This document shows positions 4,750-33,429 of a stretch of DNA of 33,429 nt, in pieces; the stretch's first letter is position 1, and each line of letters begins with the position of its first letter. The translations under genes were made by a program, and so were the position numbers. The stretch is from Verrucomicrobiota bacterium (GTDB lineage: Bacteria > Verrucomicrobiota > Verrucomicrobiia > Opitutales > Seribacteraceae). The notes beneath the pieces were generated by a model, which did not search any database, was not told where the DNA came from, and was given only the letters and a program-made list of their open reading frames with translations. The stretch lies in assembly GCA_027622665.1 (NCBI GenBank), contig JAQBYT010000042.1, positions 1-33,429 on the forward strand, in the 5' to 3' direction.

Positions 4750-4817
4750 TTAGAACGTAGAGGTGTGGCACGGAGTGAGCGCAGCGAACGGAGTTGTCCA
4801 CTACCGACTGGTTATGA
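4750..4817 (-). repeat. attC site of cassette B (68 bp)
   Basis: Minus strand: R'' TCATAAC - CAGTC - L'' GGTAGTGG - ACAACTCCGTTCGCTGCGCTCACTCCGTG - L' CCACACC - TCTAC - R' GTTCTAA. L''/L' pair perfectly apart from one bulged base. Confidence 0.88.
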
Positions 4818-5372
4818 CATAGTCCACCGCAAGAATGTGAAGATAAAATACAACCAAACAATAATGCCGCTCATGATTAAAAACCAGATTGTTTTAAGAA
4901 CCCAAGGCTTTGGTTGCGGTTGGAGCAATACGGAGACCAACTTCGCTGCTCCTTCGTCTGATTCGATATGCGTATTAATGTTATCCCAAGTGTCCGGAGC
5001 AAAGTATAAGTAGTTAATGCTGATCTCTTTTTTGGGAATCAATTTTGGAAAGTAAATTTCCCTTCCACCTCCTGGAAGATCTCTAATTTCATGTTGAATA
5101 TCTGGGTAAACGTTGAAATCTGGCAGAAAATGGTGACCTAATCGAACATTCATTGCTGCTTTTCGACCAGGATTCTTAATTACAACGGAGTGAGTATTAA
5201 CAATAGCACCAGGCTTACCATCGGCTTGTGGTTTGAGACTATGTGAGGAAATGAAACCAAGGTGAGCGATTAACTTGGAACGCTTATCAATTAGATGATT
5301 AATCAACGCACCAAGAAAGAGCGTGACAACGGGCATGCCTACAGCAACAGCCAAATTCCAATCAATATTCAT
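4812..5372 (-). CDS. Cassette-borne hypothetical membrane protein (N- and C-terminal TM helices around a beta-rich soluble domain)
   Basis: 186 aa. Hydrophobic LAVAVGMPVVTLFLGALI and IWFLIMSGIIVWLYFIFTFL segments; low GC; stop codon inside attC R''. Confidence 0.85.
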   Translation of the reverse strand: MNIDWNLAVAVGMPVVTLFLGALINHLIDKRSKLIAHLGFISSHSLKPQADGKPGAIVNTHSVVIKNPGRKAAMNVRLGHHFLPDFNVYPDIQHEIRDLPGGGREIYFPKLIPKKEISINYLYFAPDTWDNINTHIESDEGAAKLVSVLLQPQPKPWVLKTIWFLIMSGIIVWLYFIFTFLRWTMS

Positions 5373-5381
5373 ATTTATTTT

Positions 5382-5447
5382 TTATAACGTAGAGATGTGG
5401 CACGGAGTGAGGCACGAACGGAGTTGCCCACTATGGACTGGTTAGCT
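5382..5447 (-). repeat. attC site of cassette A (66 bp)
   Basis: Minus strand: R'' AGCTAAC - CAGTC - L'' CATAGTGG - GCAACTCCGTTCGTGCCTCACTCCGTG - L' CCACATC - TCTAC - R' GTTATAA. Between the R boxes it differs from the 4750-4817 site by 4 substitutions and 2 single-base indels, including a compensatory G-C to A-T change in the L stem. Confidence 0.88.
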
Positions 5448-6044
5448 GCTTTCATTTTTTAGGGCGACTGCCAATTTGTTCATTGTGGAGATCATTACAT
5501 CTGGCCACTCGCAAGTTCCGGGGAAGTTCTTTGAGAAGATACTGGTTGATGTGCCTTTTCCCCAGCTGTTTCCATTTTCTGCTTTATTTCTTGGAACTGG
5601 ATATCTCCCTTTCCAAATGACAAATTCACTTAGTAGCTTTAGGAACTCTCTTTCCTCTTTTTCAATTTCGATGCTCAGACGATCAAAGAAAATATCAATT
5701 TGGTAACTTGGCCATTCGTTTGGGATTTTTGTGTCTTCGTAATTTTTCGTTCCGCTCTTTTTAATCCATATTGCTCGAAGGTAATTTTCGTATGCAAAAC
5801 CAACAAGGAGTAAAATCTGATCTTCCATGCTGTGGGCTGTATTTAGGAGGTGAGAGTCAGGATCTGTTGCTTTAAACTCGGTTTTAGTTTTGAGTTTCTC
5901 GTTGAGCTTTTTCCTATCATCCCAGAGTCTTTCTAGGAGAACTTTGGCTACTCCAAGTAAATTTGAACCTTTAAAAAGCCATGGATGGGGGGAGGAAAGG
6001 ACGTGTTCGAATTGCTGTAATCCGACTTGGTATCTTTTGTTCAT
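5442..6044 (-). CDS. Cassette-borne hypothetical protein, possibly HEPN-like
   Basis: 200 aa from ATG 6044; the TTG at 6062 straddles the cassette boundary. The pattern GFAYENYLRA ... WKGRYPVP resembles the HEPN 'ExxLKA...RYP' layout. Low GC; stop inside attC R''. Confidence 0.8.
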   Translation of the reverse strand: MNKRYQVGLQQFEHVLSSPHPWLFKGSNLLGVAKVLLERLWDDRKKLNEKLKTKTEFKATDPDSHLLNTAHSMEDQILLLVGFAYENYLRAIWIKKSGTKNYEDTKIPNEWPSYQIDIFFDRLSIEIEKEEREFLKLLSEFVIWKGRYPVPRNKAENGNSWGKGTSTSIFSKNFPGTCEWPDVMISTMNKLAVALKNESS

Positions 6045-6075
6045 TCGATTTTTAGCTAACAAAGGGATAAATCAT

Positions 6076-32791: not shown

Positions 32792-32835
32792 GTGAAGATC
32801 AAAACCAATTCCAAGCAATCCGGAACATCACTCGA

Positions 32836-32946
32836 TTGTCATTGCGAGGAAGCCCACAGGGCTGACGCGGCAATCCAGTTCAATTCTTACTGTCTTCCTG
32901 ACGATTCAGCTGGATTGCTTCGTCGCTCCACTCCTCGCAATGACAA
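32836..32946. repeat. REP/RPE-like palindromic element (GTCATTGCGAG...CTCGCAATGAC type)
   Basis: Perfect 15-bp terminal inverted repeat TTGTCATTGCGAGGA / TCCTCGCAATGACAA plus an inner stem GCAATCCAG / CTGGATTGC. Confidence 0.8.
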
Positions 32947-33066
32947 CGAGGGAAGCATCCACTCGCAATCGTTAGCAACACATTCCATCCGGGATTACCC
33001 CAACCGCGAGTCAGTCATGCATTGGGAAGAAGTTCCGAAATGAGCAGAAGGCACCAGCAGTAAACT

Positions 33067-33098
33067 CAGACGCCCTCCGGCGAACCGGAAGGCGTCTG
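33067..33098 (-). terminator. Strong hairpin, probable terminator of the minus-strand transcript
   Basis: Minus strand CAGACGCCTTCCGG-(TTCG)-CCGGAGGGCGTCTG: a 14-bp stem with one G-U pair and a UUCG loop. The U-tail is weak. Confidence 0.65.
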
Positions 33099-33140
33099 TT
33101 GAAAAACTTGCGACGTCTCCGCCGCAATCAAACGTATAAG

Positions 33141-33371
33141 TTCTGCTTAATCATAATCAACGCGCGTTCTGATGAAACGAGTGTGTCCCTCAAGGGTTTT
33201 GGTTTCCGTGCCGCCGCCGGTTAATTCCTCCAGCTTACGAAAGATGACATTGCGATCCTTGGCCGTCGTGGCGTCCCTCGCTGCTTGCTGCAAACGTGCA
33301 ATCTCCGCAGAACAATCGGATGCACTACAATCATTCTCTCGTTCCTCGTTCATGATGTGTGATCCTTGGAG
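33141..33371 (+). mobile_element. Solitary 231-bp integron cassette, apparently integrated at a GAT (attG-type) site
   Basis: Left junction G|TTCTGC (33140-33146) is the exact complement of R'' GCAGAAC (33307-33313). The right junction at the R' position reads G|ATCAGG. Confidence 0.75.
33147..33353 (-). CDS. Small hypothetical protein in reverse orientation within the cassette
   Basis: 68 aa. AAGGA lies 9 nt before the ATG, both inside the attC. The stop abuts the left cassette junction. Confidence 0.55.
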   Translation of the reverse strand: MNEERENDCSASDCSAEIARLQQAARDATTAKDRNVIFRKLEELTGGGTETKTLEGHTRFIRTRVDYD

Positions 33372-33377
33372 ATCAGG
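33307..33377 (+). repeat. attC site (71 bp) with a hybrid R' box
   Basis: R'' GCAGAAC - AATCG - L'' GATGCACT - ACAATCATTCTCTCGTTCCTCGTTCATGATG - L' TGTGATC - CTTGGA - R' GATCAGG. Arm GGAT(G)CAC(T)ACA(A)TCAT pairs with ATGATGTGTGATCC, leaving three single bulges. Confidence 0.78.
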
Positions 33378-33429
33378 ACACTCCGGCCACTTCCCAGCCT
33401 TTTCTGTACTTCTTGGTGACGTACTGTTG
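33373..33429 (-). CDS. 3' end of a gene entering from beyond the window, probably a Gfo/Idh/MocA oxidoreductase
   Basis: QQYVTKKYRKGWEVAGVS* with TGA at 33375-33373. 'YRKGW' is a typical C-terminus of PVC Gfo/Idh/MocA proteins. Confidence 0.6.
   Translation of the reverse strand, partial: QQYVTKKYRKGWEVAGVS

What the first reader, a model, noticed from the sequence alone, without database searches (positions are those of the whole stretch)
33131..33380. Natural footprint of cassette integration at a non-classical GAT (attG) site overlapping a host stop codon
Seen: exactly where R' should be (6 nt after L') the sequence is G|ATCAGG rather than GTT, while the matching TTCTGC lies at the far end of the cassette. 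Removing 33141-33371 rebuilds ...CGTATAAG|ATCAGGAC.... The GAT overlaps the TGA of the upstream minus-strand gene. Established: integron integrases can insert cassettes at genomic sites with consensus GWT, cutting after the G. Inference: this is a fixed attG insertion. Loss of the GTT would make it nearly non-excisable and easy for attC scanners to miss.
Basis: partly seen in the sequence, partly recalled or inferred. Interest (0 to 1): 0.8.

Follow-up and report, generated by a model that had tools for sequence, protein, structure and literature searches.

The report
Integron cassette inserted at GAT site
A 231-base integron-type gene cassette sits just behind a host gene's stop codon in part of a marine bacterial population, and the empty site is present in the same sample, so it is likely a natural, recent case of an integron recombinase pasting a cassette outside its normal docking site.

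Summary
Confirmed and extended. 33141-33371 is a single integron cassette: it starts TTCTGC and its attC starts with the complement GCAGAAC, with G|AT at R'. The predicted empty allele is on contig C41 of the same assembly. Both alleles occur in the source run (contig depths 4.9 and 4.2). Four samples from three other studies and six related genomes show only the empty state. A near-identical attC in another sample has GTT at exactly this position. The flanks share AG (2 bases), not only G.

No IntI is in the assembly or in 8 congeners, but the host keeps an orphan attI ending TATAAG|TT, like the target TATAAG|AT. It also has other integrase-less cassette loci, two with exact empty G|TT sites in congeners. 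The cargo is a real, inverted 68-aa gene whose start codon lies inside attC, placed between the host stop codon and a terminator-like hairpin.

'Fixed' is wrong at population level; 'non-excisable' is untested. This is a natural example of the published attG/SALIN route, not a new mechanism; the scan noted similar insertions in phages before.

The parts
33141..33371 (+). Inserted gene cassette, 231 bp (attC top strand is +); single copy in the assembly
   Evidence: Absent from C41:1-137; joint 'skips 231' in 6 of 7 runs laid; no second copy by BLAST
33307..33377 (+). attC site, now a hybrid with host DNA: R'' 33307-33313, L'' 33319-33326 (extra-helical G), L' 33358-33364, R' position 33371-33377 reading GATCAGG
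   Evidence: near-identical site with GTT in runs X6/X7; excised-circle form folds at -10.7 kcal/mol, 5 of 200 shuffles as good
33140..33146 (+). Left junction G|TTCTGC: host G plus the cassette's own R' remainder, complementary to R''
33135..33140 (+). Left half of the target, TATAAG, identical to the last 6 bases before the crossover of the host's orphan attI (C65:37180-37185)
   Evidence: precedes 107 of 298,007 GWT sites in the genome
33147..33353 (-). 68-aa cargo gene, inverted relative to attC; first 16 codons lie inside attC; small unnamed family
   Evidence: Seven other clusters of small proteins, 47-64% identical; predicted two-helix hairpin, mean pLDDT 62
33363..33367 (-). AAGGA, likely ribosome-binding site, 9 nt before the ATG, inside the L'/spacer part of attC
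   Evidence: Sequence; function inferred
33373..33429 (-). 3' end and TGA of the host Gfo/Idh/MocA oxidoreductase gene (rest on C41:81-1466)
33067..33127 (-). Two hairpins downstream of the cargo gene; 33127-33108 scores as terminator-like; the 33067-33098 hairpin is conserved behind the host gene in relatives
4756..6059 (-). Second integrase-less locus in the window: two cassettes (attC 5444-5383 and 4817-4750) behind a host gene; not the finding itself but the same process
   Evidence: flanks adjacent without cassettes in congeners

Best explanation
The 231 bases are one integron gene cassette that an integron integrase likely inserted at the host sequence TATAAG|ATCAGG, cutting after the G, and both the filled and the empty site occur in the source sample. 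Shown: cassette anatomy, exact breakpoints, both alleles in one run, empty state in relatives, host stop codon intact. Inferred: (1) the excised circle carried a complete attC with a 7/7 R box and recombined with the double-stranded chromosome site (attC x attG); (2) the enzyme was a lineage-type IntI acting in trans or since lost, because none is assembled although the host keeps an orphan attI and several arrays; (3) the site was favoured because its 5' side matches that attI; (4) the inverted cargo gene, lying 19 nt behind the host stop codon and before the terminator-like hairpin, is transcribed as an extension of the host gene and translated from signals inside attC; (5) the A-A mismatch in the hybrid R box lowers, but need not abolish, excision.
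For: Empty allele on C41. Source run X1: insert contig depth 4.88, empty joint 4.2, flanks 10.2-10.3; run X10 (other sample, same study) spans both insert junctions with no mismatch. Empty only in X2, X4, X5, X6, X7 and in 6 of 6 related loci aligned. Contigs in X6/X7 match 33307-33367 only (2 differences in 61) and go on with GTT at the R' position. Of 18 collection hits of the attC's two-part motif, 8 have GTT exactly 6 nt behind L', several in arrays (2 of the 18 came from a pattern that required GWT). IntI over the TIGR02249 cut-off in 11 of 76 family genomes, with same-style attC and attI ending TATAAG|TT in 7 of 8 read. Own orphan attI at C65:37185, 84% over 50 nt to one of these, followed by a cassette with the same GTTCTGC/GCAGAAC core. 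Exact empty G|TT sites in congeners for the cassette loci on C25 and C26. GWT consensus and cut after G: bioRxiv 10.1101/2022.09.11.507474.
Against: No IntI in the assembly (93.5% complete) or in 8 congeners. Flanks share AG, one base more than the model needs. The base before the crossover G is A here but C in 23 of 24 reference attCs, and the closest attC differs in the last three spacer bases. As inserted, the site folds no better than shuffles (-5.8 kcal/mol, 124 of 200 as good) and scores only 14.8 bits, E 0.13, with my covariance model. The attI likeness is post hoc and holds for 1 of 6 non-attI left junctions; the other five end in TTG. The CRGM hotspot motif of IntI1 is not met. No RNA data were examined.
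Confidence: 0.9

Rival explanations
1. Same insertion, but the empty copies in the source sample come from ongoing precise excision by an integrase active in that population, rather than from a strain that never had the cassette. This concerns the dynamics and is compatible with the main reading.
For: Near-equal depths in X1; Loot et al. saw excision of some genome-inserted cassettes; the left junction now equals the host attI junction over 12 bases; GAT-core cassettes exist in this genome.
Against: Empty is the ancestral state and the only state seen in 4 other samples, so strain mixture suffices; no IntI assembled; X10 shows only filled contigs.
Confidence: 0.15
2. Insertion by another recombinase (XerC/XerD or the truncated tyrosine recombinase on C5) or by microhomology joining at AG.
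For: These are the only tyrosine recombinases assembled; 2-base shared end.
Against: The ends coincide exactly with a cassette's R' and attC; the C5 protein is truncated and lacks the IntI insert; other loci show the same G|TT rule.
Confidence: 0.05
3. Non-autonomous IS110-type element or MITE, the shared AG (CT on the other strand) being its core or target duplication (IS110 CT core recalled, not from a call).
For: Two shared bases AG/CT.
Against: Single copy; ends show no inverted repeat; no PF02371 match in the assembly; homology with the X6/X7 contig starts at R'' and stops at the attC spacer.
Confidence: 0.03
4. GTT-to-GAT point mutation or sequencing error in a decayed array, a deletion creating the empty allele, or an assembly chimera.
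For: The window ends at a contig break 58 bases behind the site.
Against: GAT is in the empty allele in 6 runs; relatives are empty; two runs assemble both filled junctions; the contig break is explained by the two-allele bubble.
Confidence: 0.02

Closest known systems
attC x attG insertion and SALINs (Loot et al., bioRxiv 10.1101/2022.09.11.507474; whole main text read; supplements and the 2024 Nature Microbiology version not seen)
   Same: Single attC cassette, no integrase nearby, target fits 5'-GWT-3', cut after G, precise ends, expression possible from a host promoter.
   Different: The preprint shows insertion experimentally in E. coli and V. cholerae with IntI1-3 and infers it for 3,400 SALINs without showing empty sites; here filled and empty alleles are seen in one natural sample. 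Its attG sites are said to differ from attI, whereas this one matches the host attI 5' of the cut. The CRGM hotspot motif is absent.
Natural secondary-site insertions of aadB in plasmids RSF1010 (pIE723) and pRAY (seen only as cited)
   Same: A complete single cassette precisely inserted outside an integron, downstream of a host promoter.
   Different: Chromosomal, marine, non-resistance cargo, inverted gene, GAT target, segregating in a population.
CALINs (Cury et al. 2016, PMC4889954; passages)
   Same: The host's other loci (window 4756-6059, C26, three on C65) are attC clusters without intI; secondary-site integration is one of four origins that paper lists.
   Different: For C26 and the single cassette on C25 the exact empty target is read in congeners, which picks that origin over integrase loss for those loci.
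Sedentary integrons of sister genera (IntI of about 400 aa, TIGR02249 over cut-off)
   Same: Same attC style (extra-helical G in L'', cores such as GTTCTGC/GCAGAAC) and attI ending TATAAG|TT.
   Different: The window's genus has no IntI in 9 of 9 genomes searched (51-97% complete); only an orphan attI and scattered cassettes in this genome.

Membership tests
Integron gene cassette / attC | R'' ending AAC, 5-nt spacer, L'' with an extra-helical base, L' complementary, R' 5-7 nt behind L' | tested here: met
   L boxes 6 of 7 paired; spacers 5 and 6 nt
Integron gene cassette / attC | Cassette start complementary to its own R'' so that the circle has a paired R box | tested here: met
   7 of 7; circle folds at -10.7 kcal/mol, 5 of 200 shuffles as good
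Integron gene cassette / attC | Related attC sites occur in arrays with GTT at R' | tested here: met
   X6/X7 contig; 8 of 18 motif hits; family integrons
Integron gene cassette / attC | Bottom strand is bound and recombined by IntI | not testable with these tools
   Needs a recombination assay
Integron gene cassette / attC | Scores with the IntegronFinder attC model | not testable with these tools
   Model not available; own model gave the best hit of the window, 14.8 bits, E 0.13; no Rfam family above gathering score
SALIN / attG insertion | Single attC with no integrase gene or other att site nearby | tested here: met
   Nearest other attC in the window is about 28 kb away; no IntI in the assembly
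SALIN / attG insertion | Empty target fits GWT with the cut after G and no loss or gain of host bases | tested here: met
   C41 and six runs read G|AT; host sequence intact; the cut position is ambiguous by 2 bases from sequence alone
SALIN / attG insertion | Catalysed by IntI on a double-stranded site, bottom strand cleaved | not testable with these tools
   Inferred from anatomy and orientation
IntI1 attG hotspot | CRGM at positions +6 to +9 | tested here: not met
   Reads GACA; motif
attI site / complete integron | Adjacent intI and extended attI sequence at the locus | tested here: not met
   Only the last 6 bases match; 10 of 16 against a family attI, reached by 307 of 298,007 GWT sites; upstream lie host hairpins
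IS110-type element or MITE | Several copies, terminal or subterminal repeats, cognate transposase | tested here: not met

The most novel reading that the evidence does not exclude
In this marine genus, which shows no integrase of its own, a visiting IntI that accepts GAT keeps scattering cassettes behind host stop codons. attI-like chromosome sites act as seeds of new arrays, and an inverted cassette can use its own attC as ribosome-binding site and start codon to join a host operon at once. The segregating insertion would be a new array caught at birth.
Probability: 0.25. Interest if true: 0.72.

Novelty: new member of a known kind. Interest (0 to 1): 0.5.

Why it matters
The attG route was shown in laboratory strains and only inferred for the thousands of lone cassettes in genomes. 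This locus gives the missing natural control, filled and empty alleles in one sample with exact ends, and the same genome gives two more loci with exact empty sites in congeners. It makes three things directly testable with a named enzyme family: whether a native IntI prefers attI-like chromosome sites, whether GAT junctions trap cassettes, and whether attC can supply translation signals for an inverted gene. It also suggests that scanners and assemblers lose such events: the site broke the assembly and scores weakly once inserted.

Tried and rejected
Finding the donor cassette: no true match of the 231 bp in 75 other family genomes (best E 0.009); exact 22-base attC motif 0 hits in JGI metagenomes; attC pattern 0 hits in viral contigs; cargo family in 0 of 400 other phylum genomes and 0 confirmed viral loci. 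Finding the integrase: TIGR02249 and tblastn with five family IntI proteins give only XerC/XerD-like genes and fragments on C5 and C18. The attI motif in viral contigs and 301 order genomes gave mostly chance hits in coding DNA. The simple attC heuristic was too noisy (124 hits). The genome-wide covariance search scored only 150 of 1,167 candidates and missed this site and most array sites, so it is no census. The four-cassette locus at C65:3.9-8.0 kb could not be tied to an empty site. WD40 hits of the cargo protein (2 of 7) are chance matches to a short motif. ESM Atlas gave nothing above 0.79; Pfam only DUF6800 at E 0.067. The structure model was too poor for a fold search, which was not run. 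The idea that all secondary targets here mimic attI was rejected (1 of 6).

Full report
Observation. The window is the whole contig C38 of a 4.5-Mb, 93.5% complete assembly. The described anatomy is present: R'' GCAGAAC at 33307, 5-nt spacer, L'' with an extra G, L' at 33358-33364, 6-nt spacer and G|ATCAGG at 33371. TTCTGC at 33141 completes the exact complement of R''. The GAT overlaps the host TGA by one base. The host gene is a Gfo/Idh/MocA oxidoreductase whose body lies on contig C41. Gene content suggests a PVC bacterium; 'marine Opitutales' comes from an earlier scan note and was not tested.

The empty allele. C41:1-79 equals window 33062-33140 and C41:80-137 equals 33372-33429, so the assembly holds both alleles and broke at the bubble. 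Of 21 runs listed, 7 were laid. X1, possibly the source, has a 289-nt contig through the insert (depth 4.88) and the empty joint (4.2) beside flanks of 10.2-10.3. X10, another sample of that study, spans both insert junctions and shows no empty joint. X2, X4, X5, X6 and X7 (four samples, three studies) show only the empty joint. Contig depth is not a share of cells and contigs drop rare variants. The six related loci aligned (four congeners, two family members) run from the gene end into the hairpin with no insert, so empty is ancestral. The two ends share AG, so the cut cannot be placed to one base from sequence alone; the integron model predicts the G, and the A has about a one-in-four chance.

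The attC is real. Contigs in X6 and X7 match exactly 33307-33367 (2 differences in 61 bases), have other DNA upstream, and continue with three other bases and then GTT at the position of the window's GAT. A two-part motif from this site gave 2 genome and 16 metagenome hits; 8 of the 18 have GTT 6 nt behind L', 10 do not, several of these being chance or degenerate. The reconstituted circle folds into a full attC hairpin (-10.7 kcal/mol, 5 of 200 shuffles as good), whereas the site as inserted does not stand out (-5.8, 124 of 200). A covariance model from 24 other sites ranks it first in the window but weakly (14.8 bits, E 0.13), and a profile scan ranks it 7th in the genome; both training sets were partly seeded by this site's motif. 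One departure: the base before the crossover G is A, against C in 23 of 24 reference sites.

Where the enzyme could come from. No IntI is assembled. TIGR02249 passes its cut-off in 11 of 76 family genomes, all in two sister genera, and in 0 of 9 genomes of the own genus. Those integrons have attC sites of the same style and attI sites that end TATAAG|TT in 7 of 8 read. The own genome has an orphan attI at C65:37185, 84% identical over 50 nt to one of them, and its first cassette has the same GTTCTGC/GCAGAAC core. The window's target reads TATAAG|AT; TATAAG precedes 107 of 298,007 GWT sites, and the filled junction equals the attI junction over 12 bases. This comparison is post hoc, and the five other non-attI left junctions end in TTG, so attI likeness is a feature of this site only. 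The IntI1 hotspot motif CRGM is not met. Two cassettes on C65 have compensated GAT/ATC cores, which suggests tolerance of GAT by some integrase serving this gene pool.

A pattern in the genome. Integrase-less cassette loci lie at window 4756-6059, C25, C26, three places on C65 and on C58. Five congeners were searched for each of C25, C26 and one C65 locus. C25 is empty in 2 of 5 (exact G|TT in G003; three lack one or both flanks), C26 in 4 of 5 (exact G|TT in three), and the C65 locus was inconclusive. The window's second locus is empty in four congeners, with a target too diverged to read.

Cargo. The 68-aa minus-strand ORF fills the cassette except for 24 bases. It has seven other clusters of small relatives at 47-64% identity and no Pfam family. 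Residue I18 is invariant in 10 of 10 sequences and the only ATG, GTG or TTG before it inside the cassette is the ATG within attC, so start codon and likely ribosome-binding site come from attC. The gene points the same way as the host gene, 19 nt behind its stop and ahead of a terminator-like hairpin; co-transcription is inferred, no RNA was examined. The model shows two helices at low confidence; function is not resolved, and a regulator or antitoxin-like role is only a lead from P0013.

Mechanism. Best reading (0.9): attC x attG insertion by an IntI in trans or since lost. Rivals are an IS110-type or MITE insertion (single copy, no terminal repeats, no PF02371 match), another recombinase, and mutation or misassembly, all weak. 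Whether the empty copies in X1 are never-filled or excised is open. 'Nearly non-excisable' is plausible from the mismatched R box but untested; Loot et al. saw notable excision in 2 of 24 clones with genome-inserted cassettes.

Comparison with print. Loot et al. (bioRxiv 10.1101/2022.09.11.507474, whole main text; supplements and final journal version not seen) define attG, GWT and SALINs and cite natural aadB insertions in two plasmids. Cury et al. (PMC4889954, passages) list secondary-site integration as one origin of CALINs. Passages of PMC12901181, PMC13323075 and 10.1101/2025.06.18.660453 showed no natural filled/empty chromosomal pair. Six searches (listings only) surfaced none either, but the library lacks most subscription papers. 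Earlier unchecked notes of this scan describe four similar lone insertions in phages, one at G|AT.

Verdict. A clean, segregating natural member of a known kind, with useful extras (attI-like target, attC-borne start, several loci in one genome). Interest 0.5.

Noticed in passing
window 4756-6059 (-): Two-cassette array without integrase between two host genes; flanks adjacent or nearly so without cassettes in G002, G004, G005, G007 (G003 broken); target too diverged to read.
   Followed up: partly
G000:C65:33011-33005 and 7044-7038 (-), closing sites at about 32737 and 6540: Two cassettes with a compensated GATCTAC/GTAGATC core instead of GTT/AAC inside ordinary arrays; suggests that some integrase serving this lineage accepts GAT. 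Also noted earlier by the scan.
   Followed up: partly
G000:C65:37064-41160 (L084): Orphan attI with about 120 AT-rich bases upstream, no intI, followed by a methyltransferase-like cassette and several toxin-antitoxin-like pairs (names from recall); a 30-base repeat of the neighbouring gene's end recurs at 41132.
   Followed up: partly
G000:C25:3016-3900 and C26:42284-43207 (-): One and two cassettes with exact empty G|TT sites in congeners (C25: G003; C26: G003, G004, G005).
   Followed up: yes
G000:C5:58029-61634 (L008 8030-11635): Low-GC contig end with a truncated tyrosine recombinase lacking the IntI insert and genes that look Bacteroidota-like (from recall); foreign DNA or misjoin.
   Followed up: no
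L025, L028, L034 (metagenome contigs): The same attC-like site with R'' GCAGAAC but no GTT behind L' (GTA one base early); possibly another off-site insertion.
   Followed up: no
L135 = G128:C9:9616-9632: attI-like sequence of the same type in another family, followed by a sulfatase-like gene, with no integrase in the 1.5 kb upstream.
   Followed up: no
P0013: A 124-aa homolog of the cargo protein has an N-terminal extension that looks like a ribbon-helix-helix domain (by eye); hints at a regulator or antitoxin role.
   Followed up: no
window 32820-32950: Palindromic repeat family with many copies across the assembly, often at contig ends.
   Followed up: no
runs X4-X7, at window 33132-33373: A sister strain has a different 9-base stretch at the target and lacks the GAT site, as do the congeners.
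   Followed up: partly
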